From: Candidatus Woesearchaeota archaeon
Lineage (GTDB): Archaea > Nanobdellota > Nanobdellia > CAYMVK01 > CAYYFB01
Assembly: GCA_964622145.1 (NCBI GenBank)
Contig: CAZUOK010000007.1
Coordinates: forward strand, 1-8,208
Reading direction: 5' to 3'
Length of the DNA stretch: 8,208 bases
Part shown: piece by piece, positions 2 to 8,062 of the stretch
Numbering within the stretch: the stretch's first letter is position 1
How the letters are laid out: each line of letters opens with the position of its first letter
The notes under the pieces: model-generated
What the model was told of the DNA's origin: nothing
The model's input: only the letters and a program-made list of their open reading frames with translations
The model's database searches: none
Translations under genes and position numbers: made by a program

Positions 2-1336
2 AGGAGGAAAGATTCGGAAAGATTATTTTATTTTATTGATCCTCCAGAATTTCATCTTTCTTTAAAAGAGATAAAAGAAATACTGCTTGCTGTTTTGAAG
101 GGGGAAGTATCGAAGGATGTTGAGGATGTATACAAGAGGTACATGGAGGGATTGGGGATTATAGAACTTTTGGTTAGGGATGGGAATGTTGAGGATGTGT
201 TTGTTTCGTCGGTGGATGGAAGGGTGTACGTAAATCACAAGAGGTATGGTCTCATGGATACGAACTTGAAACTAAATAGTAGAGATATATCTAGGATAAA
301 TATAAGGGTAAGGGAGATATCTGGAAGGCCTTTTGATGAGGGAGTACCTGTAATACACCTTTCGCTTGGTAAAGCTAGGATAACTGGGATAAGGGAGCCG
401 TTTACATTCAAGGGTGTTGGTTATGCTGTTAGGATACACGAGAAGGTCTCCTGGACGCTTCCAAAACTAATAAAAAACAGAATGCTCGACGAAAAGGTTG
501 GAGCGCTTCTAAGTGTTCTTGTGGATTCCTTTTCAACAATCCTGATAACTGGTCCTAGAGGTGCTGGGAAGACCTCCCTTCTATCCGCCCTCCTGTTTGA
601 GATACCGAAGACGGAGAGGATAATTGTAATTGAGGATACTGCAGAGCTTCCTGTTGAGGAAATGGTGAGGGCAGGCTATGTGGTTGAGCATATAAGGATA
701 TCTGCTTGGGACAGTGAGTACGAAATGTCTCCAGAAGAAGCCCTTAGAGCTAGTTTAAGACTTGGAGAAAGCTTCCTGATAATAGGGGAGGTTAGGGGGA
801 AGGAGGCGATAACACTGTTTGAGGCTATGAGGATAGGGGCTGCTGGAAACACTGTTATGGGGACCATCCACGGGAGTTCTGCTGAGGATGTCTTTGACAG
901 GATTGTAAACGAAATTGGAATACCAAAGACATCCTTCAAAGCTACGGACTTTATAATATCTGTAAACAATCTCAGGCTTGGAGAAAGTACCAAGAGGATT
1001 AGGAGGCTTATTGAAGTAAAAGAGGTTGGAAAGGATTGGAGGGAAGATCCTAGGATTGAGGGAGGATTCTTGGATATCGTTATCTACGACAGGTTTAGGG
1101 ATAAGTGGATTGTTAAGAACTTGGAAAAATCTTCAGGAATAAGGAAAATACTTTTCGTCAGGGGGTGGAAGTTTGATGAATTTAAAGAAGTTCTAAAGGC
1201 TAGGGAGGAGCTCCTTAGGAAATGTATAAGAAAGGGGATTTTGGATCCCTTGGATTACTCAAAAGCAAAATCTCTTTATTACAAGCTTGTTGAGGAAGGC
1301 TTTTCACCAAAGGAGGCAGTTTCGAAGGTGGTTTGA
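2..1336 (+). CDS. Type IV filament / secretion ATPase of the GspE-PilB-FlaI(ArlI)-VirB11 superfamily, 5'-partial
   Basis: The frame of track ORF 95..1336 stays open back to nt 2 (RRKDSERLFYFIDPPEFHLSLKEIKEILLAV precedes LKGEV). The TTG at 95 is therefore an ORF-caller artefact and the window edge truncates the gene. All four signature boxes are present: Walker A GPRGAGKTS, Asp box IIVIEDTAEL, Walker B FLIIGEVRGKEA, His box GTIHGSSAEDVFDRI. Confidence 0.9.
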   Translation, partial: RRKDSERLFYFIDPPEFHLSLKEIKEILLAVLKGEVSKDVEDVYKRYMEGLGIIELLVRDGNVEDVFVSSVDGRVYVNHKRYGLMDTNLKLNSRDISRINIRVREISGRPFDEGVPVIHLSLGKARITGIREPFTFKGVGYAVRIHEKVSWTLPKLIKNRMLDEKVGALLSVLVDSFSTILITGPRGAGKTSLLSALLFEIPKTERIIVIEDTAELPVEEMVRAGYVVEHIRISAWDSEYEMSPEEALRASLRLGESFLIIGEVRGKEAITLFEAMRIGAAGNTVMGTIHGSSAEDVFDRIVNEIGIPKTSFKATDFIISVNNLRLGESTKRIRRLIEVKEVGKDWREDPRIEGGFLDIVIYDRFRDKWIVKNLEKSSGIRKILFVRGWKFDEFKEVLKAREELLRKCIRKGILDPLDYSKAKSLYYKLVEEGFSPKEAVSKVV

Positions 1337-1485
1337 TGAAGATTGAAAGGATTGCTTTGGAAGAGATTATTAGGATGATAAGAGAAATTGAAAAGGAACT
1401 TCACAGACTAAACCTAGAGATAAGGAGCATAAGGGAGGAATTGGATCTAATAAAGGCAAAACTTTTAAATAAAAGGAGGCAATGA
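1336..1485 (+). CDS. Small 49-aa coiled-coil protein (MKIERIALEEIIRMIREIEKELHRLNLEIRSIREELDLIKAKLLNKRRQ), function unknown
   Basis: Translated by hand; it is too short for the ORF track. Its ATG overlaps the ATPase stop as ATGA (1334-1338), with GGTGG 5 nt upstream. Its last codons contain AAAGGAGG (1472-1479), a candidate SD for the ATG at 1492. Hydrophobic residues follow a heptad pattern. Confidence 0.5.
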   Translation: MKIERIALEEIIRMIREIEKELHRLNLEIRSIREELDLIKAKLLNKRRQ

Positions 1486-1491
1486 AAGGTT

Positions 1492-3435
1492 ATGATCTTC
1501 CCTTTCTTGCCCCTTCCTGGAGTGGGTGGGGGAACCATCGCTAGCAAAGTCATTGCAAAACCTGCAGCTGCAATTGCTAGGAGGATTGGGAGGGCCTTGA
1601 TAGTTAATTCCTCCAATTGGTTTAGGAAGAAATTTGGAGGTCTGAAAGCTTTCTTGAACAAAAACAAAGATTTGGTTTCTTTTGGTCTACAAACTATTGG
1701 AATGCTACTTATGCTTACAAAGATCCCTCCCTTAATGGCAATAGGGTCCGGAATGGTAATAGCTGGAGGACTTATGACAGGTGACTGGAAAACAACACTT
1801 GTAATGCTTGGGATAGGCCTTGTTGGGTTTGGGCACGTTGCAGGATCTTTAAACCTTTCATGGCTGGCTTCGGCTCTTAGTCATCTCGGAAGGGCATCCA
1901 TGTTCCTAAGTTCTGCCGGATTCTTTTTGGATGGGTTCAAGAGGCTTAGAAGAGGGGATATAAGTACTGGATTGGAGAGTATGGCAATGGGACTTCTAGG
2001 ACTCTCTGAGGGGCCTTTTGGGGTGATGACAAGGGGATTGTTAAGGATGATGGCAAGTGGGATGTTCGTGTCCTCCGGAGCTCTCGAAATTAAGAAAGGG
2101 AATGTGGTTTATGGAGCTTTATCAGTAGGGTTTGGTTTGGTGATAGGGAGGGTTGGGAGGATAGAGTACAAGTACGGAAGGGTTGGAGGTGAGGTTGATG
2201 CCTTCCTCAGAGAAAGAGTATACAAAGGAGTGGCTGGAGAAGAGGCTGGAAGAGTTGAAGTCAGAGCTAAGAGGAGAATTCTTAGAAAGATTGCGAGACT
2301 TGGAGGAAAGATTTTCAAGAGAATTGGAAGAAGTTTCAAAGGAATTGGACGCTTTGGAAGAAGAATTCTTTCAAGAGCTGGAAAGATTGGAGACATTATT
2401 GTTAAGGGAATTGGAAAAGTGGGAAAAGCGATTAAGAGATTCTTTATCAAAGGAATTCAAAAAGTGGGAGGAATCTTTGTCAGAGGAATTGGAGAAATTA
2501 GACAAAGTGGTGAAAGAGCTGTTAGACTTTCTGTGAGGGGGGAGAGGTATTTCATAGAAAGATTGGCTAGGAGATACAGATCCTTTGTTGCAAGGACAAC
2601 GGATGGGATACTGAAGTGGTTCTTTGGTAAGGGAAAAAGGGTTGTTGTGGACACAAATTCGATAAGGGGAGGGTTTAAGTTCGTTGATGCAGTTGTCCTG
2701 GAAAAGGGGAAAGGAGGGGTGTACGTTGATGTATACGATGTCAAAACAAGGGCTTTGCCACTGGAAGATATAGGGGAAAAGGCCCTTAATAGATATCTTA
2801 ACAGGGATATTCCAAAGCTTGGATCTGTTGGGGCGAGAAATCTTGAGGGGGCTTTCTCAAAGGTAGATAGGAGATTGTGGAGGGTATTTAGGAATGCCAG
2901 GATAAGGAAAAGGACTCTTGTAATAATAGATGGAGCTAACAAGGTTGTTACACCAAGGTCTTTAGAAAAGAAAGCAAGAATTCTGTCAAAAATCCTAAGG
3001 AGGTCTAGGAGATATGGTGTTAGGATTAAGAGCATAACGAATTACTTGGGACCTGCTGTTGGGAAACCTTTTGTAAGGAAATCAAGGAAGGTGGAAAGGT
3101 CTATTAGAAAAGTATTTGGGAGGATTAGGTCAAGACTAAGGAGGATAAGATCGGGTGTTATCAGAAGATTGTTTAAAAGACCCTCAAGACTGAGATGGTA
3201 TAGAAGTTCTGTTAAAAGAACTTTGAGGAGATCCTTAAGAAGGACTAGAAATAGGATTAGAGGAAGAACATTCTTAAGAAGAGTGAGACCCAAGATATCT
3301 AGAAGGTATGCATCTTTTAGGAGGTCGATTTCTAGGTGGTATAGGAGGAGAAGGTCCTGGATATCCAGGAAGTACAGATCTTTTAGGAGGTCTATCTCGA
3401 GGTGGTTTAGGAGTTTTTTTGGAAGGCGTAGGTAA
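1492..3435 (+). CDS. 647-aa multi-domain membrane protein of unknown function: N-terminal glycine-zipper TM region, cationic G-I-G repeat region, globular middle, arginine-rich tail
   Basis: An uninterrupted 1.9-kb ORF in AT-rich DNA, preceded by an SD motif. Residues ~60-235 carry several Gly-rich hydrophobic segments (GSGMVIAGGLMTG, GIGLVGFGHVAG, AMGLLGLSEGPFG, GALSVGFGLVIGRVG). Residues ~262-340 hold KRIGRSF/KGIGRFG/KGIGKVG/RGIGEIR repeats. By hand count the last 120 residues contain 46 Arg, 7 Lys and 1 Glu. I recognise no family. Confidence 0.8.
   Translation: MIFPFLPLPGVGGGTIASKVIAKPAAAIARRIGRALIVNSSNWFRKKFGGLKAFLNKNKDLVSFGLQTIGMLLMLTKIPPLMAIGSGMVIAGGLMTGDWKTTLVMLGIGLVGFGHVAGSLNLSWLASALSHLGRASMFLSSAGFFLDGFKRLRRGDISTGLESMAMGLLGLSEGPFGVMTRGLLRMMASGMFVSSGALEIKKGNVVYGALSVGFGLVIGRVGRIEYKYGRVGGEVDAFLRERVYKGVAGEEAGRVEVRAKRRILRKIARLGGKIFKRIGRSFKGIGRFGRRILSRAGKIGDIIVKGIGKVGKAIKRFFIKGIQKVGGIFVRGIGEIRQSGERAVRLSVRGERYFIERLARRYRSFVARTTDGILKWFFGKGKRVVVDTNSIRGGFKFVDAVVLEKGKGGVYVDVYDVKTRALPLEDIGEKALNRYLNRDIPKLGSVGARNLEGAFSKVDRRLWRVFRNARIRKRTLVIIDGANKVVTPRSLEKKARILSKILRRSRRYGVRIKSITNYLGPAVGKPFVRKSRKVERSIRKVFGRIRSRLRRIRSGVIRRLFKRPSRLRWYRSSVKRTLRRSLRRTRNRIRGRTFLRRVRPKISRRYASFRRSISRWYRRRRSWISRKYRSFRRSISRWFRSFFGRRR
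2275..2511 (+). repeat. Imperfect purine-rich repeat of roughly 21 nt (heptad-like) inside the 647-aa CDS
   Basis: The core GAATTGGA recurs exactly at 2321, 2342, 2408 and 2486, with variants at 2384 and 2452. It encodes [KR]-G-I-G-[KR] units. The tract is open in two sense frames and on the antisense strand. Confidence 0.6.
3301..3411 (+). repeat. Two copies of a 45-nt unit spaced 66 nt apart, inside the Arg-rich tail
   Basis: 3301-3345 and 3367-3411 align at 36/45 nt by hand. They encode RRYASFRRSISRWYR and RKYRSFRRSISRWFR. Five of the differing codons are synonymous (aga/agg, tat/tac, tcg/tct, att/atc, tct/tcg). Confidence 0.75.
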
Positions 3436-3859
3436 TTTCTCTTTTCAAGAAATCCAATACCTTTCTAACAATCCTCATTTCAACACCTATCTTTCTCATA
3501 ATTCTTTCGATGTCTTTATCTCTTAGCCCAGCCTTTTTCATAGAAAGGATTGTCCTAACAACGTTTCTCAAGTAAATCTCCCTTATCCTCCCTCTCTTTT
3601 CTCCGTACTTGAAGGTCGCTGTGAAGGTCAGTATCCTACTAATAACATCTGAGGAAAAACCGACCGTAAAGGAGTACAGGCAAAGAATTTGTTTTGATGT
3701 TCCGAGGAGGTAGTAGGTGTTTGAAAATAGGTAGGCTGATAGAGATATCAGAATGATAAAGGAAAAGAATTCTCTTAAAACATCATTCCTTGAAGGCCTT
3801 GTGAGGATTTCCCCTAGCAGCACTCCAAGTATAAAAGATATTGCCTCCTCCACAAACAC
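3407..3859 (-). CDS. Small membrane protein (about 3 TM segments) with a basic helical C-terminal domain, function unknown
   Basis: It is the only ORF covering 3436-3860. Hydrophobic segments are ISFILGVLLGEIL, FFSFIILISLSAYLF and ILCLYSFTVGF, followed by GRIREIYLRNVVRTILSMKKAGLRDKDIERIMRKIGVEMRIVRKVLDFLKRE. The track start at 3997 would run through the TATA box and the start of the divergent gene at 3906. GTG starts at 3859 or 3853 fit a leaderless start 22-28 nt from the TATA centre. The 3' end overlaps the 647-aa gene convergently by 29 nt. Confidence 0.55.
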   Translation of the reverse strand: MFVEEAISFILGVLLGEILTRPSRNDVLREFFSFIILISLSAYLFSNTYYLLGTSKQILCLYSFTVGFSSDVISRILTFTATFKYGEKRGRIREIYLRNVVRTILSMKKAGLRDKDIERIMRKIGVEMRIVRKVLDFLKREITYAFQKNS

Positions 3860-3874
3860 CTCTTCCTCGGAAAT

Positions 3875-3886
3875 CCTTATAAAAAG
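3875..3886. promoter_or_regulatory. Shared A/T-rich TATA element between two divergent, apparently leaderless genes
   Basis: CCTTATAAAAAG reads TTATAAAAA on the plus strand and TTTTTATAA on the minus strand. Its centre (~3881) lies 25 nt from the ATG at 3906 and 22-28 nt from the GTGs at 3859/3853. This matches the archaeal spacing of about -26 between TATA box and transcription start. Confidence 0.55.
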
Positions 3887-3905
3887 ATCACCGAAGTAAC
3901 AGGTT

Positions 3906-4403
3906 ATGAGGGGTGTTGAGGCGGCACCTTTGGCGTATGTTCTAGCGGCAATATCTGTTGTAATAGCCCTCTCAATACTCGTCATGATGGGGACCACTAT
4001 AAAGGGAGGGGTGAAAGAGGCTACGGAGACGATAAACGAATCGATAGTTGAGGGTGTTAGGAGGGCATCTCAAGAGTTATCAGAGACTTTTGGAGAGGAG
4101 GATCAGATTGTTATAGATTCTGTTAACAAAACAAATAAGACAATTTACTTCAGTGTTTTCAACTGGAGAAATGCTGAGAAGTTTGATGTAGTAATAAAGG
4201 ATAAGTCTGGAACAGAGGAAAAGAAAGATCTCCAAATTGTTGACTACTGCGAGTCAAAAGATCTGGATGGAGATGGAAAGGTTGATGATCTTAACTGTAA
4301 ATATAAATCGGATCTTGAAAAGATGACATCAGGGATATTGGAGATATATCTGAAGAGTTCTGATGGGAAGGTGCTTTCACAGCAGAAATACATTTACAAG
4401 TGA
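3906..4403 (+). CDS. Pilin-like protein P1, a candidate class III signal peptide protein and possible major subunit
   Basis: The N-terminus MRG-VEAAPLAYVLAAISVVIALSILV is a short basic leader ending in R-G followed by a hydrophobic helix of about 22 residues. The rest is hydrophilic, with sequons NES, NKT and NKT. Cys115 and Cys131 bracket DLDGDGKVDD. It is the first gene after a well-spaced TATA box. Confidence 0.7.
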   Translation: MRGVEAAPLAYVLAAISVVIALSILVMMGTTIKGGVKEATETINESIVEGVRRASQELSETFGEEDQIVIDSVNKTNKTIYFSVFNWRNAEKFDVVIKDKSGTEEKKDLQIVDYCESKDLDGDGKVDDLNCKYKSDLEKMTSGILEIYLKSSDGKVLSQQKYIYK

Positions 4404-4407
4404 TCAG

Positions 4408-4860
4408 ATGGTAGAGGAAGAGATATTTAGACCAATTTTAATTTCCCTTTTGATTACAATGACTGCACTTTTAGGTTCAAATGTAATATACAACTTTATT
4501 CTTTCTCAAAAGATTGGAAGATTCTACAAGCAGGTAAATGATATGATAAGGACGATGATTTATATGAGAAATTATCTTGAGAAACCTTCCTTCATGAGAT
4601 TTTACATAGAAATCCCCTCCTACTGCCATTTATCAATAGATAATAGTTCAAACACAATTTCTTATGGATGTTCTGGAAAGAGGTACAAGATTCCAATGAA
4701 ACAATACAAAATAGAAATACTTTTGATAAAAGGAGGAAAAAATTGCAATATAAACAATGGAAGATTCCTACATGGAGAATACAATATTGTACTGGCTTAT
4801 GTTGAAAAAATTCCAGGGGAAAAACAGGAATGCGTGGTGTATTTTGATGATATCTCTTGA
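4408..4860 (+). CDS. Pilin-like protein P2
   Basis: Starting at the ATG 4 nt after the P1 stop places a hydrophobic helix at the N-terminus (MVEEEIFRPILISLLITMTALLGSNVIYNFIL). The protein has 4 Cys and an NSS sequon. Its C-terminal motif VEKIPGEKQEC resembles SEKIPGKIMRC in P4. The track start at 4363 would overlap P1 by 41 nt and bury the helix. Confidence 0.6.
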   Translation: MVEEEIFRPILISLLITMTALLGSNVIYNFILSQKIGRFYKQVNDMIRTMIYMRNYLEKPSFMRFYIEIPSYCHLSIDNSSNTISYGCSGKRYKIPMKQYKIEILLIKGGKNCNINNGRFLHGEYNIVLAYVEKIPGEKQECVVYFDDIS

Positions 4861-5176
4861 GTTTATCATTGAGATTTTTGAATTCTTCCTGTTCGTCTAT
4901 CTACTTATCTTTTTCCAAAAAACTATTTATTTCTTCAGAGAAATGAAGAAGAGTGTTGAGGGAGAAATGATATGCAGCTTGATAAATTTATTGTATGCAA
5001 AGGGGGGAGAAATAAAGCTACATCTTGTGGAGAAAACAGAAATAAAAGGAAATATACTGAATTATTCTGGATTTATATGCTATTCAAAGGGATTTTGCAA
5101 CGAATTTTTTGGATCAGGTTATATAAAGTTTAGATTGAACGGATCTTGCATAGAGGTGGTGGCTTACAATGATTGA
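4847..5176 (+). CDS. Pilin-like protein P3
   Basis: The in-frame ATG at 4847 gives MISLEFIIEIFEFFLFVYLLIFF. Its xxSxEF start resembles the QxSxEF core of archaeal class III signal peptide proteins. It overlaps P2 by 14 nt and has 4 Cys. The upstream part of the track ORF (4757 onward) lies inside P2. Confidence 0.55.
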   Translation: MISLEFIIEIFEFFLFVYLLIFFQKTIYFFREMKKSVEGEMICSLINLLYAKGGEIKLHLVEKTEIKGNILNYSGFICYSKGFCNEFFGSGYIKFRLNGSCIEVVAYND

Positions 5177-5528
5177 CAGGGTTTTGGAATCCCTAATAAT
5201 CTTATTCTTGTTTTTTATCACAATACTCTCAATTCATGCAAAGATTATGGAAGACTTTAAATATTTTAGAAAACTGTCAAAACTTTTCAGATCGTTATCA
5301 GAAATAGAGCTAATTTGCAAAGAATCAACAGGAAACCCACTTTATTTTAACTTATCAGACATAAAAGAATATGATTTAATTGTTGAGACATTTGAAAATG
5401 GAAGCGTAAGAGTTTACTGTGGAAGTGGTGGTTGTGAGATCTCAGACAGGATCTGTTTTGGGTTGCCAGCTGTTATTTTAAAAGGATCTGAAAAGATACC
5501 TGGGAAAATTATGAGGTGTCTTAAATGA
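5169..5528 (+). CDS. Pilin-like protein P4
   Basis: The N-terminus is MIDRVLESLIILFLFFITILSI. It overlaps the P3 stop by 8 nt, and GAGGTGG lies about 10 nt upstream. It has 5 Cys and sequons NLS and NGS. Confidence 0.6.
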   Translation: MIDRVLESLIILFLFFITILSIHAKIMEDFKYFRKLSKLFRSLSEIELICKESTGNPLYFNLSDIKEYDLIVETFENGSVRVYCGSGGCEISDRICFGLPAVILKGSEKIPGKIMRCLK

Positions 5529-5995
5529 GGTCGATTCCAATAATAATATTTTGGATTCTAGCCCTATCTTTTTTCATATTCTATCCTACAGGAAGATCTC
5601 ATGAAAATCTCCTAAAAACTCTTTACTACAAGGAATATTACAAGAGATTTCTTGACGTCTTGATTGAAACAAGAGAAAATGAACTTAAAGAGCTGGGGAA
5701 TCTTATAAGAGAGAGCGGCTGTTACAATAAAACAGTTGTTGAAAAGATAAGAGAAATTGGGAGTGTATACAAGATGTACAGGAAGGGAAATTATGAAATA
5801 TTATTTGGAATTTCTGTAAGATCAAAGAGCACAAATTGTTACATCTATTACAACAGCACCTGCCTTTGTTTCTATGAAGAATTCAAGGATCCTCTTGGTA
5901 GAGGAGAAGTGATTCTTGTTGAGGAAGCTGGAAAGGTATCCAGGAAGGTAAACATTTCTTTTATCGAGGAGGTCTCAATTGGGTACTTCAGATAA
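5525..5995 (+). CDS. Pilin-like or membrane-anchored extracellular protein P5
   Basis: The N-terminus is MRSIPIIIFWILALSFFIFYP. It overlaps the P4 stop as ATGA, and GAGGTG lies 8 nt upstream. It has 4 Cys and sequons NKT, NST and NIS. Confidence 0.6.
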   Translation: MRSIPIIIFWILALSFFIFYPTGRSHENLLKTLYYKEYYKRFLDVLIETRENELKELGNLIRESGCYNKTVVEKIREIGSVYKMYRKGNYEILFGISVRSKSTNCYIYYNSTCLCFYEEFKDPLGRGEVILVEEAGKVSRKVNISFIEEVSIGYFR

Positions 5996-6008
5996 CTTTA
6001 TTTATACT
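5996..6008 (+). promoter_or_regulatory. TATA element for a leaderless transcript starting at about 6027
   Basis: TTTATTTATA (5997-6006) is centred about 25-26 nt upstream of the ATG at 6027, directly after the P5 stop. Confidence 0.5.
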
Positions 6009-6026
6009 TCTTGAGAATCTGTTTTT

Positions 6027-6152
6027 ATGTCCGTGCTTGGAGTGATAATATTGATATTGATCATAACGTTCTTCACGATATATATCGGGATGAGATATCA
6101 GCTGGAACAGAAGATATTGGAGATTGTTGGAGAGGGATTGAAGATATGCTAG
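6027..6152 (+). CDS. 41-aa single-TM protein ([41 protein letters not shown])
   Basis: Translated by hand; it is absent from the track. The ATG sits at the predicted leaderless start, and the N-terminal hydrophobic helix is clean. The competing track frame (6011, TTG start) reads as non-protein-like sequence over this stretch. Confidence 0.4.
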   Translation: MSVLGVIILILIITFFTIYIGMRYQLEQKILEIVGEGLKIC

Positions 6153-6457
6153 ATTTTTTGTTGTTTTTTTCCGGAATACTCATGGCAGAGATGTTATCCC
6201 CAGGGTTTGAATTTTATGAGGAACTGCTCCACGTATTCCTAATCGTTCTTATCGCTGTTACCGTTTTTGGAAAAGATTACAAGATACTTGGAAGTCCTTA
6301 CCTCTACAACTTTTTCTCAGGATTTTCATCAACCATTTCATCAATGTTCCTCGTACAATCTTTCAAATGCTTAAAGCAAATATTAAAGAGAAGGAGGAGG
6401 ATGGAGATTGCTAGGAAAATTAGATTGCTAAGGGATATAAGGGAAAGGCTAAGATAG
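6146..6457 (+). CDS. 103-aa membrane protein with a basic C-terminal helix, function unknown
   Basis: This is the internal ATG of track ORF 6011..6457. It overlaps the 41-aa ORF stop as ATGCTAG. Hydrophobic segments are [16 protein letters not shown] and [15 protein letters not shown], and the tail is [23 protein letters not shown]. The 3' end overlaps uL24 convergently by 9 nt. Confidence 0.45.
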
Positions 6458-7990: not shown

Positions 7991-8062
7991 TGGGCCCGGC
8001 GGGATTTGAACCCGCGACCATCCGGTTAAGAGCCGGACGCTTTAGGCGGAGGGTGGTGGCCT
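7991..8062 (-). tRNA. 3' fragment of a split (or very long-intron) tRNA-Lys(CUU), preceded by a GC-rich leader
   Basis: The minus strand reads AGGCCACCACCCTCCGCC-TAAAGCG-TCCGG-CTCTTAA-CCGGA-TGGTC-GCGGG-TTCAAAT-CCCGC-CGGGCCC-A. The anticodon arm is perfect, with CTT at 8030-8028. The T arm with TTCAAAT loop, the 3' acceptor strand and discriminator A (7991) are all present. No 5' acceptor strand GGGCCCG and no D-arm 5' half occur upstream through 8208. The tRNA-like sequence stops at about nt 21-23 (~8043) and gives way to the leader at 8044-8062. Confidence 0.75.

What the first reader, a model, noticed from the sequence alone, without database searches (positions are those of the whole stretch)
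1492..3435. 647-aa chimera: glycine-zipper membrane anchor, cationic repeats and an arginine-rich tail
The protein has four distinct parts. The first is several GxxxG-rich hydrophobic helices. The second is about 80 residues of [KR]GIG[KR] heptad-like units (RILRKIARLGGKIFKRIGRSFKGIGRFGRRILSRAGKIGDIIVKGIGKVGKAIKRFFIKGIQKVGGIF), whose composition recalls cationic amphipathic membrane-surface helices. The third is a mixed-charge, probably globular segment (VVVDTNSIRGGFKFVDAVVLEKGKGGVYVDVYDVKTRALPLEDIG...). The fourth is the Arg-rich tail. I know of no described family with this layout. Inference: a membrane-anchored polyanion binder, perhaps for nucleic acid, acidic lipid or S-layer glycan, coupled to the filament ATPase. 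A role in DNA handling or in cell-cell contact is conceivable but unproven.
Basis: partly seen in the sequence, partly recalled or inferred. Interest (0 to 1): 0.8.

Follow-up and report, generated by a model that had tools for sequence, protein, structure and literature searches.

The report
Polycationic pilus-locus protein hiding embedded gene
A real but almost orphan gene in the pilus gene cluster of a tiny symbiotic-type (DPANN) archaeon encodes a membrane-anchored, extremely positively charged protein. Its odd "GIGK repeat" segment is also read in a second frame, as a conserved small acidic coiled-coil gene hidden inside it.

Summary
The 647-aa ORF (1492-3435, +) and its four-part layout are real. 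The codon model supports this frame throughout. The protein has pI 12 and net charge +121.

It has no match in Pfam, NCBIfam, PDB, phages, plasmids or viral contigs. Searches of 5.8 billion protein clusters and 1.84 billion representatives returned only itself.

Following the neighbouring pilus ATPase found one counterpart. It is an 888-aa protein (net +235) in a related DPANN genome, 24-28% identical, with the same N-terminal motif and the same four parts. There it sits in an operon with the candidate platform gene.

The new result concerns the "cationic repeat" part. It overlies a +1-frame ORF (2198-2536, 112 aa, acidic coiled coil) preceded by GGAGGTGA and ATG. The 888-aa homologue carries an equivalent ORF at the same place. 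Both frames lack stop codons there far beyond expectation (about 10 expected, none seen inside the ORF; P<=1e-4 in each genome). The test is calibrated everywhere else in both genes.

Best reading: a fast-evolving, largely cytoplasmic polyanion-binding accessory of a type-IV-pilus-like machine that carries an embedded gene. The function is inferred, not shown. The tape-measure, platform and nuclease readings are not supported.

The parts
1492..3435 (+). 647-aa ORF: polycationic membrane protein (pI 12, net +121); stop TAA at 3433-3435
   Evidence: A homologue with the same layout is in L001.
1492..1671 (+). N-terminal segment aa 1-60: conserved M-[IL]-x-F-P-x-L-P motif followed by a basic amphipathic stretch (net +10)
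   Evidence: Alignment with the L001 888-aa protein; composition.
1672..2166 (+). Gly/Ser/Ala-rich hydrophobic helices (aa 61-225): the membrane anchor
   Evidence: Hydropathy. This is the only region where the single-sequence AlphaFold model reaches pLDDT 65-78, as a helical bundle. The L001 protein has 2-3 strongly hydrophobic helices at aa 168-225.
2227..2526 (+). Cationic amphipathic 'GIGK' segment (aa 246-345) of the main frame: the dual-coding stretch
   Evidence: Hydrophobic moment 0.72 against 0.31 +/- 0.06 for shuffles. Degenerate 26-27-nt repeats. Ile codons are ATT 14, ATC 2, ATA 0, against 50-62% ATA elsewhere.
2185..2192 (+). GGAGGTGA Shine-Dalgarno-like motif, 5 nt upstream of the embedded ORF's ATG; the only copy in the window
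   Evidence: GAGGTG-type motifs 4-8 nt upstream are the norm for operon-internal genes in this window and in L001.
2198..2536 (+). Embedded +1-frame ORF: 112 aa, acidic (pI 4.65, net -13), E/K/L-rich amphipathic or coiled-coil-like product (MPSSEKEYTKEWLEK...KELLDFL)
   Evidence: With the main frame fixed, 10.5 stops are expected in the +1 frame and only the ORF's own stop is seen (P<5e-5). With the alt frame fixed, 12.4 stops are expected in the main frame and none is seen. The deficit is confined to this stretch and to this frame. An equivalent ORF lies at the same place in L001 (7536-7180, minus strand, 118 aa).
2527..3126 (+). Middle segment aa 346-545: basic, mixed alpha/beta, fold unknown
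   Evidence: No family or PDB match. AlphaFold single-sequence model has pLDDT 33. A PD-(D/E)xK reading is a lead only.
3127..3432 (+). Arg/aromatic-rich tail aa 546-647 (41 R, 0 D/E) with an internal duplication at 3294-3347 and 3360-3413
   Evidence: The L001 homologue has a tail of about 250 aa with (RRxY)-like composition.
2..1336 (+). Context: type II/IV secretion (FlaI/PilB-like) ATPase. It runs off the left end of the window.
   Evidence: Pfam T2SSE E=3.6e-25; NCBIfam FlaI and TadA-type matches; frame continuity at the window start; 77% and 68% identical relatives.
1336..1485 (+). Context: 49-aa basic coiled-coil gene. Its start overlaps the ATPase stop by 1 nt, and it ends 6 nt before the 647-aa ORF.
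   Evidence: A 59-aa counterpart follows the ATPase in L001.
3407..3997 (-). Context: small 3-helix membrane protein with a basic C-terminal helical domain. Its true start is probably downstream of 3906. Its 3' end overlaps the 647-aa ORF by 29 nt.
   Evidence: Homologues lie beside the ATPase in L001 (3013-3447, minus) and L003 (9197-9664, minus).
3906..5995 (+). Context: five pilin-like genes with N-terminal hydrophobic helices (3906-4403, about 4405-4860, about 4847-5176, 5169-5528, 5525-5995)
   Evidence: The same five-gene series occurs in L001 at 3464-5655.

Best explanation
The ORF is a genuine, fast-evolving, lineage-restricted accessory gene of a type-IV-pilus-like gene cluster in a DPANN (Woesearchaeota-like) archaeon.

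Shown:
- It encodes a protein with a Gly-rich hydrophobic anchor and about 420 C-terminal residues of extreme positive charge.
- A related genome has a counterpart with the same layout.
- In both genomes the gene is co-oriented with core pilus genes: the ATPase in the window, the candidate platform in L001.
- In both genomes the segment between the anchor and the middle domain is kept open in two frames. The +1 frame has its own Shine-Dalgarno motif and ATG and encodes a 112-118-aa acidic coiled-coil-like protein.

Inferred:
- By the positive-inside rule, the cationic bulk is cytoplasmic, tethered to the membrane next to the pilus motor.
- The Arg/aromatic tail binds a polyanion, most likely nucleic acid. 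The protein would then hold or hand over DNA or RNA at the cytoplasmic face of the machine. Binding to the anionic inner leaflet is an alternative.
- The embedded gene is translated separately. Its acidic amphipathic helix may pair in register with the cationic helix encoded by the same nucleotides, acting as a neutralising partner or regulator.

The odd 'GIGK' composition is largely the frame-shifted image of an E-L-E-K coiled coil.
For: The gene is real:
- The codon model favours the frame throughout.
- The 888-aa L001 protein shares the N-terminal motif, the order of the parts and 24-28% identity.
- It is an intact ORF in both genomes.

Linkage to the pilus system:
- Window order: ATPase, then the 49-aa coiled-coil gene, then this gene, with 1-nt overlap and a 6-nt gap, followed by five pilin-like genes.
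- In L001 the homologue ends the strand that carries a 127-aa membrane protein, a 517-aa polytopic protein and a HEPN gene.
- The 517-aa protein is conserved in L003 (35% identity, E=2e-107).

Charge: pI 12.0, net +121; the L001 protein has net +235.

Embedded gene:
- Synonymous-codon resampling gives stop deficits in both frames in both genomes (P<5e-5, 1e-4, <5e-5, <5e-5).
- The analytic profile matches observation everywhere else in both genes and in the +2 frame.
- Of five alternative frames, only sense +1 is significant in both genes.
- The two genes rank 1st and 3rd of 74 genes tested.
- ATA Ile codons are absent from the stretch.
- SD plus ATG is present in both; 10% and 4.6% of positions in the two genes have such a motif by chance.
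- The products are acidic, amphipathic (moment 0.48-0.52 against 0.24 +/- 0.04) and weakly similar to each other (E=0.002).
- Hydrophobic positions coincide between the frames (28 of 38 and 35 of 42), and 19 of 20 Gly codons lie over Glu/Asp.
Against: - Only two family members are known. Their pairwise similarity is weak (28.9 bits, E=8e-4).
- A third related genome (L003/L005; ATPase 68% identical) has no such gene within 10 kb of its ATPase. The protein is therefore not a core pilus part.
- There are no expression or proteomic data for either frame.
- No fold information: AlphaFold without an alignment gave pLDDT 44 (full length) and 33 (middle domain).
- Topology and polyanion binding rest on composition only.
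- The dual-frame stretch has degenerate DNA repeats. Part of the codon uniformity could be inherited from a repeat expansion rather than selected.
- A coding-like +1 frame can arise in purine-rich low-complexity sequence, as in the L001 tail, although that tail shows no stop deficit.
Confidence: 0.5

Rival explanations
1. The +1-frame ORF is not a gene. It is a by-product of a purine-rich, repeat-derived sequence: a stop-free unit such as AAR-GGA-ATT-GGA-AAR was amplified and has not yet decayed. The main protein is then simply a polycationic membrane protein.
For: Degenerate 26-27-nt repeats with spacings that are multiples of 3. The genetic code makes the +1 frame of K/G/I-rich sequence read as K/E/L. 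The codon likelihood of the +1 frame is also high in the L001 Arg/Tyr tail, where no ORF is claimed.
Against: The +2 frame of the same stretch has 6-13 stops, as expected. The open run includes non-repeat sequence upstream (2198-2300). The same situation holds in a homologue whose sequence has diverged to 24-28% protein identity. Both ORFs start with SD plus ATG. Repeat copies are only 70-81% alike, so synonymous sites have had time to change.
Confidence: 0.25
2. It is a host-directed, membrane-active effector of an ectosymbiotic archaeon. The cationic amphipathic helices and the Arg/Trp/Tyr-rich tail (which resemble antimicrobial and cell-penetrating peptides, from my own knowledge) attack or fuse with the host membrane. 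Delivery would occur at pilus-mediated contact. The embedded acidic protein would be its neutralising immunity or chaperone partner.
For: Strong amphipathicity and GIGK-type motifs. R/W/Y/F-rich tail. Very fast evolution, 24-28% identity against 77% for the neighbouring ATPase, as expected for host-interaction genes. Presence or absence varies among close relatives. The partner encoded in the same DNA is acidic.
Against: No signal peptide or class III signal. Export of a domain with more than 100 net positive charges is energetically unfavourable. No homology to any toxin or effector family.
Confidence: 0.12
3. It is a remote relative of phage tail tape-measure proteins: a long helical protein with glycine-zipper membrane segments. 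It would act as a ruler or as a membrane-inserting DNA conduit, and might be of viral origin.
For: Both the window protein and the L001 protein hit the same PHROG profile, phrog_167 (tape measure), at overlapping profile positions (E=1.7e-4 at 556-899, and E=6.7e-5 at 664-896 of 1555).
Against: The scores are only 20-22 bits, spread over about 550-600 residues of query. The N-terminal hydrophobic part alone does not hit the profile. tblastn against 50,697 phage records found nothing, and IMG/VR found nothing. No tail, capsid or other viral genes are nearby; the neighbours are pilus and ribosomal genes. Tape-measure profiles are rich in coiled-coil and Gly-zipper composition, so a compositional match is likely.
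Confidence: 0.07
4. The middle domain is a PD-(D/E)xK (YraN/Hjc-like) nuclease fold. The protein would then be a membrane-anchored nuclease and DNA binder of a pilus-based DNA-uptake system, working like NucA/EndA plus ComEA in bacterial competence.
For: In the L001 protein, the helix GEEAEKVARKYLKDLGYEIV gives sub-threshold hits to UPF0102 (Pfam E=0.16) and to the YraN family (NCBIfam E=0.0073, 16.4 bits against a cutoff of 111). BLASTP against an archaeal Hjc aligns KDFVV...VGVEVK with the PD...EVK catalytic motif (E=3.7). The window protein has FVDAVV...VDVYDVK by eye.
Against: Nothing is significant. The window protein gives no hit at all. MAFFT aligns L001's E-V-K with F-S-K in the window protein, so the motif is not clearly conserved. 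There is no usable structure model.
Confidence: 0.12
5. It is the highly divergent platform protein (PilC/FlaJ/TadC type) of the pilus machine.
For: It follows the ATPase, where platform genes often lie. It has several hydrophobic helices.
Against: No T2SSF match even at E<=1. The related genome L001 has, besides the homologue, a separate 517-aa polytopic protein in the same operon. That protein is conserved in L003 (35% identity), is the better platform candidate, and carries a T2SSF-like motif by eye (IPTISQSLKAYLSAGINLETAL). The third genome has this candidate but lacks the polycationic protein.
Confidence: 0.03

Closest known systems
Embedded (+1 frame) gene pairs: phage lambda Rz/Rz1 spanins and Bacillus subtilis comS inside srfAB (from my own knowledge). 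Long overlapping genes in prokaryotes are reviewed or reported in PMC8665328 and PMC8850804.
   Same: A small gene with its own ribosome-binding site lies wholly inside a larger gene in another frame on the same strand. Both frames are kept open. The partners are plausibly functionally linked.
   Different: No sequence relation. This is an archaeal chromosomal pilus locus. The two products are an in-register pair, cationic Gly-rich helix against acidic coiled coil. Translation of the inner gene is not demonstrated.
Membrane-anchored DNA receptors and nucleases of competence pili (ComEA, NucA/EndA; from my own knowledge)
   Same: A membrane-anchored protein encoded with type IV pilus genes and with a presumed nucleic-acid-binding part.
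   Different: ComEA binds DNA outside the membrane through helix-hairpin-helix motifs; none is detected here. The cationic bulk here should be cytoplasmic. No homology.
Phage tail tape-measure proteins (phrog_167)
   Same: Long, largely helical, basic, with Gly-rich hydrophobic segments. Weak profile hits for both family members.
   Different: Scores of 20-22 bits only. No viral gene context and no match in phage genomes. The Arg/aromatic tail and the embedded ORF have no counterpart.
Lineage-specific accessory membrane subunits of archaeal type IV filament systems (e.g. FlaX of the crenarchaeal archaellum; from my own knowledge)
   Same: A non-universal, membrane-anchored, helix-rich protein encoded next to the FlaI-type ATPase.
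   Different: No sequence similarity. FlaX is not polycationic and has no Arg-rich tail. Here the coiled coil is in the embedded frame, not in the main protein.
YraN (UPF0102) / Hjc PD-(D/E)xK nucleases
   Same: In the L001 homologue only: a helix-plus-D...E-x-K pattern and sub-threshold profile hits.
   Different: Below every threshold. Not seen for the window protein. The motif is not clearly conserved between the two proteins.

Membership tests
Type II/IV secretion platform proteins (T2SSF; PilC/FlaJ/TadC) | One or two T2SSF domains detectable by profile (Pfam PF00482) | tested here: not met
   No T2SSF hit at E<=1 in Pfam or NCBIfam.
Type II/IV secretion platform proteins (T2SSF; PilC/FlaJ/TadC) | The single polytopic partner of the ATPase, present wherever the ATPase is | tested here: not met
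   L001 has a separate 517-aa polytopic candidate. L003 has that candidate but no polycationic protein.
Phage tail tape-measure proteins | Significant profile match to a tape-measure family | tested here: inconclusive
   phrog_167 E=1.7e-4 (20.4 bits) and E=6.7e-5 (21.8 bits) for the two family members, diffuse over the protein. No Pfam tape-measure hit.
Phage tail tape-measure proteins | Located in a tail-gene module of a virus or prophage | tested here: not met
   The neighbours are the pilus ATPase, pilin-like genes and ribosomal protein genes. No hits in phages or IMG/VR.
PD-(D/E)xK nucleases (YraN/UPF0102, Hjc) | Profile match above threshold | tested here: not met
   Window protein: no hit. 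L001 protein: E=0.16 (Pfam) and E=0.0073, 16.4 bits against a cutoff of 111 (NCBIfam), helix only.
PD-(D/E)xK nucleases (YraN/UPF0102, Hjc) | Conserved D ... (D/E)-x-K catalytic motif on the beta2-beta3 hairpin | tested here: inconclusive
   The pattern is present by eye in both proteins. MAFFT does not align the two motifs with each other. The Hjc alignment has E=3.7. No usable model.
Archaeal type IV pilins (class III signal peptide) | An N-terminal [KR]-[GA] cleavage site followed directly by one hydrophobic helix | tested here: not met
   The N-terminus is MIFPFLPLPGVGGGTIASK..., with the first hydrophobic helix only at about aa 62. The true pilin-like genes of the locus start MRGVEAAPL....
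Embedded same-strand overlapping genes | An alternative-frame ORF longer than expected given the main-frame protein and the genome's codon usage | tested here: met
   P<5e-5 (window) and P=1e-4 (L001) for the region. The profile is calibrated elsewhere. The two genes rank 1st and 3rd of 74 genes.
Embedded same-strand overlapping genes | Conservation of the ORF at the same place in a divergent homologue, with its own start signals | tested here: met
   L001 7536-7180 (118 aa) lies at the equivalent position. SD plus ATG is present in both. This rests on two genomes only.
Embedded same-strand overlapping genes | Evidence of translation of the inner frame | not testable with these tools
   No ribosome profiling or proteomics is available for these uncultured organisms.
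Competence-type DNA receptors (ComEA) | Helix-hairpin-helix DNA-binding domain | tested here: not met
   No HhH family hit in Pfam or NCBIfam.

The most novel reading that the evidence does not exclude
One stretch of DNA encodes, in two frames, a matched acid-base pair of amphipathic helices. The embedded acidic coiled-coil protein would bind, in register, the cationic Gly-rich helix of the big protein, which is encoded by the same nucleotides. It would thereby gate or neutralise a membrane-tethered Arg/aromatic nucleic-acid clamp. That clamp would work with a DPANN type IV pilus machine to take up or hand over DNA or RNA from the host. This would be a new accessory module for archaeal pili and a new logic for why two genes overlap.
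Probability: 0.1. Interest if true: 0.85.

Novelty: new variant of a known kind. Interest (0 to 1): 0.62.

Why it matters
DPANN archaea depend on contact with hosts, and their pilus-like machines are prime candidates for that contact and for acquiring nucleic acids. The accessory parts of these machines are almost unknown.

This locus offers a concrete, testable candidate: a membrane-tethered protein with one of the most extreme positive charges one can encode, tied to the pilus genes in two different gene arrangements.

Independently, the conserved +1-frame gene inside it would be a rare, statistically well-supported case of an embedded same-strand overlapping gene in an archaeal chromosome. 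Standard annotation discards such genes (PMC8665328, PMC8850804). It also shows how an odd-looking 'repeat domain' can be the frame-shifted image of another protein, which is a caution for reading low-complexity domains from sequence alone.

Tried and rejected
- **Large protein searches.** Only the query itself was found. The one extra hit, P0003, is a translated tandem repeat matched eight times and is spurious.
- **Exact look-up of the protein's contig.** Not on record. The pilin look-up gave only a 929-nt contig.
- **Genome and metagenome scans with the ATPase.** They yielded one other organism, a Woesearchaeota MAG (L003/L005, the same as L002), which lacks the gene.
- **More distant ATPase neighbourhoods (L007-L009).** No similar protein.
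- **Viral contigs, phage and plasmid collections.** Nothing.
- **PDB sequence search.** Nothing for the full protein, and only chance hits for the L001 middle domain.
- **AlphaFold2 without an alignment.** pLDDT 44 and 33. I did not run fold searches on these models because the matches would be meaningless.
- **PADLOC.** Only coiled-coil-type hits of the embedded products to ZorA tails and similar; rejected as compositional.
- **Double frameshift or sequencing error as the cause of the dual frame.** Rejected, because two independent genomes show the same arrangement and all neighbouring genes are intact.
- **Programmed frameshift into the +1 frame.** Considered unlikely, because in L001 a TAG lies two codons before the inner ATG.
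- **Long antisense ORFs over the gene (up to 194 codons).** Explained by composition (P about 0.5).
Full report
**1. What is in the window**

The window carries an archaeal type-IV-pilus-like gene cluster next to a ribosomal-protein operon.
- A FlaI/PilB-type ATPase runs off the left end and stops at 1336. It matches Pfam T2SSE at E=3.6e-25 and gives FlaI/TadA-type NCBIfam hits.
- A 49-aa coiled-coil gene follows. Its ATG overlaps the ATPase stop by 1 nt (1336-1485).
- The 647-aa ORF follows 6 nt later (1492-3435).
- A small membrane protein is encoded on the minus strand (3407 to about 3900).
- Five pilin-like genes lie at 3906-5995, and a paralogous small membrane protein at 6011-6457.
- On the minus strand lie L24, L14, S17 and an RNase P subunit.
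- The nearest relatives of the ATPase are from DPANN archaea. Named hits are Nanoarchaeota, Woesearchaeota, Aenigmatarchaeota and Micrarchaeota.

**2.

The ORF is open for 647 codons. A codon model trained on the window's reliable genes prefers its frame by 9-48 log units in every 150-nt window, except 2212-2400, where the +1 frame ties.

The protein has these parts:
- a basic N-terminal stretch;
- Gly/Ser/Ala-rich hydrophobic helices at aa 61-225;
- a K/R/G/I-rich segment at aa 246-345 that is strongly amphipathic (hydrophobic moment 0.72, against 0.31 +/- 0.06 for shuffles);
- a basic mixed middle segment;
- a tail with 41 Arg and no acidic residue in 102 aa.

Overall pI is 12.0 and net charge is +121. 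The tail contains a 54-nt duplication.

**3. It is nearly an orphan, but not alone**

No database gave a credible match.
- Pfam, NCBIfam and PDB sequences gave nothing.
- The word-indexed search of 5.8 billion clusters found only the protein itself.
- phmmer against 1.84 billion representatives also found only the protein itself, plus a spurious translated repeat.
- Phage, plasmid and viral collections were empty.

I therefore followed the ATPase instead.
- Its closest relative (77% identity; L001, assembly GCA_054036315.1) sits in a cluster with the same small coiled-coil gene, the same minus-strand membrane gene and the same five pilin-like genes. It has nothing between the coiled-coil gene and the membrane gene.
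- Downstream on the other strand, L001 carries an 888-aa ORF that begins MLPFPLLP (the window protein begins MIFPFLPLP).
- That ORF has Ala/Gly-rich transmembrane helices, a GIGK-type cationic stretch, a middle segment and a tail of about 250 aa of (RRxY)-like sequence. Its net charge is +235.
- The two proteins are 24-28% identical (E=8e-4 pairwise). That is too little to be found in a database-wide search, while the ATPases are 77% identical. The family is evolving very fast.
- In L001 the gene is the last of a co-oriented series: a 127-aa membrane protein, a 517-aa polytopic protein, a HEPN protein, then the 888-aa protein.
- The 517-aa protein is conserved in a third genome (35% identity, E=2e-107) and is the better platform candidate.
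- That third genome, a Woesearchaeota MAG (L002/L003/L005; ATPase 68% identical), has no polycationic protein within 10 kb. Three more distant loci lack one as well.

The gene is therefore linked to core pilus genes in two different arrangements, but it is not universal.

**4. The cationic repeat segment is dual-coding**

*The embedded ORF.* The +1 frame holds an ORF at 2198-2536. It encodes MPSSEKEYTKEWLEKRLEEL...KELLDFL: 112 aa, pI 4.65, net -13, E/K/L-rich and amphipathic. The 888-aa homologue has a 118-aa ORF of the same kind at the equivalent place (L001 7536-7180).

*Stop-codon tests.* I resampled synonymous codons from each genome's own usage.
- With the main-frame protein fixed, 10.5 (window) and 9.4 (L001) stops are expected in the +1 frame. 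Only each ORF's own stop is seen (P<5e-5 and P=1e-4).
- With the +1 product fixed, 12.4 and 8.1 stops are expected in the main frame. None is seen (P<5e-5 in both).

*Controls.*
- An analytic expectation tracks the observed stop counts closely along the rest of both genes and in the +2 frame. It fails only at aa 241-330 (window) and aa 271-390 (L001).
- Of the five alternative frames, only sense +1 is significant in both genes.
- The long antisense ORFs (up to 194 codons) are what composition predicts.
- Among 74 genes from six loci, the two family members rank 1st and 3rd. The remaining genes behave as a null should.

*Cause of the deficit.* In the stretch, Ile is encoded by ATT 14 times, ATC twice and ATA never. 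ATA makes up 50-62% of Ile codons elsewhere.

*Start signals.* Both inner ORFs begin with ATG preceded by a Shine-Dalgarno-like motif.
- In the window it is GGAGGTGA, 5 nt upstream, the only copy in the window.
- In L001 it is GAGGTGGT.
- This matches the motif seen before other operon-internal genes of these genomes.
- By chance, 10% and 4.6% of positions in the two genes have such a motif.

*Relation between the two frames.* The two inner products are weakly similar (37% over 73 aa, E=0.002). Hydrophobic positions coincide between the frames (28 of 38, against 12.9 expected). Of the 20 main-frame Gly codons, 19 lie over Glu/Asp codons. 'K-G-I-G-K' is therefore the frame-shifted image of 'K-E-L-E-K'.

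*Caveats.* The stretch has degenerate repeats. There are only two genomes. Translation is untested. I put the probability that the inner ORF is a real gene at about 0.65.

**5. What was not supported**

- *Platform protein.* No T2SSF match, and a separate candidate exists in relatives.
- *Tape-measure protein.* Both family members hit phrog_167 at overlapping profile positions, but with only 20-22 bits spread over the whole protein. The context is not viral, and there is no match in phage genomes. I treat this as compositional, with about 7% residual belief.
- *PD-(D/E)xK nuclease.* The L001 protein gives sub-threshold YraN/UPF0102 hits for one helix, and a motif-level alignment to Hjc. The window protein gives nothing, and the motifs do not align with each other. 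This is a lead, not a finding.
- *Structure.* Single-sequence AlphaFold models were too poor to search.

**6. Most likely mechanism**

Shown:
- a real, fast-evolving gene tied to pilus genes;
- a hydrophobic anchor and extreme cationic charge;
- two frames kept open in the linker segment in both genomes.

Inferred:
- More than 100 net positive charges follow the last hydrophobic helix. The C-terminal two-thirds should therefore stay in the cytoplasm (positive-inside rule).
- There, an Arg/aromatic tail of this kind would bind nucleic acid or the anionic inner leaflet.
- Being encoded with the ATPase or the platform suggests that it acts at the base of the pilus machine, for example by holding nucleic acid there.
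- The inner gene would give an acidic helix that could pair in register with the cationic helix encoded by the same DNA.

The main rivals are a by-product ORF (0.25), a host-directed membrane-active effector with an acidic partner (0.12), the nuclease variant (0.12) and tape-measure ancestry (0.07).

**7. Novelty**

- As a protein family it has no known relatives.
- As a system it is a new accessory module, with an embedded gene, in a known kind of machine.
- Such orphans are common in DPANN genomes, which tempers the score.
- The conserved same-strand embedded gene and the extreme charge raise it.

Noticed in passing
window 7999-8047 (-): A tRNA-like element reaches the Rfam tRNA gathering score (30.3 bits against 29), but only for model positions 10-63. 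It has a D-arm with no loop and a CUU (Lys) anticodon loop. ARAGORN finds no tRNA anywhere in the window. It could be an atypical, intron-containing or split tRNA gene, as known from Nanoarchaeota.
   Followed up: partly
window 3407-3435: The 3' ends of the 647-aa ORF (+) and of the small membrane-protein gene (-) overlap convergently by 29 nt. The extra C-terminal residues of the minus-strand product (EITYAFQKNS) are absent from its L001 homologue.
   Followed up: partly
window 3407-3997 (-) and 6011-6457 (+); L001 3013-3447 (-) and 10691-11074 (-); L003 9197-9664 (-): This is a conserved family of small proteins (127-155 aa) with about three hydrophobic helices and a basic C-terminal helical part. 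They flank the pilus ATPase or platform genes in all three related genomes. They have no family assignment and may be an unrecognised pilus-system component.
   Followed up: partly
window 4250-6250: G+C drops from about 0.42 to about 0.32 across the pilin-like genes.
   Followed up: no
L001 8451-8852 (-): A HEPN-domain gene (weak Pfam hit on record) sits between the candidate platform gene and the 888-aa homologue.
   Followed up: no
L002 1974-3272 (-) / L003 7902-9200 (-): In the Woesearchaeota MAG, an RNase J-like beta-CASP metallo-beta-lactamase gene lies inside the pilus cluster, between the candidate platform gene and the small membrane gene next to the ATPase.
   Followed up: no
L001 5702-6450 (-), aa 640-888 of the 888-aa protein: The tail is about 250 residues made almost only of Arg, Tyr and a few hydrophobic residues (RRYYRR...-type). 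Its +1 frame is also 'coding-like' by codon usage but shows no stop deficit.
   Followed up: partly
window 2109-3293 (-): Three long antisense ORFs (113, 192 and 83 aa) lie opposite the 647-aa gene. Resampling shows that their lengths are what the purine-rich coding strand predicts (P about 0.07-0.55), so they are shadows.
   Followed up: yes
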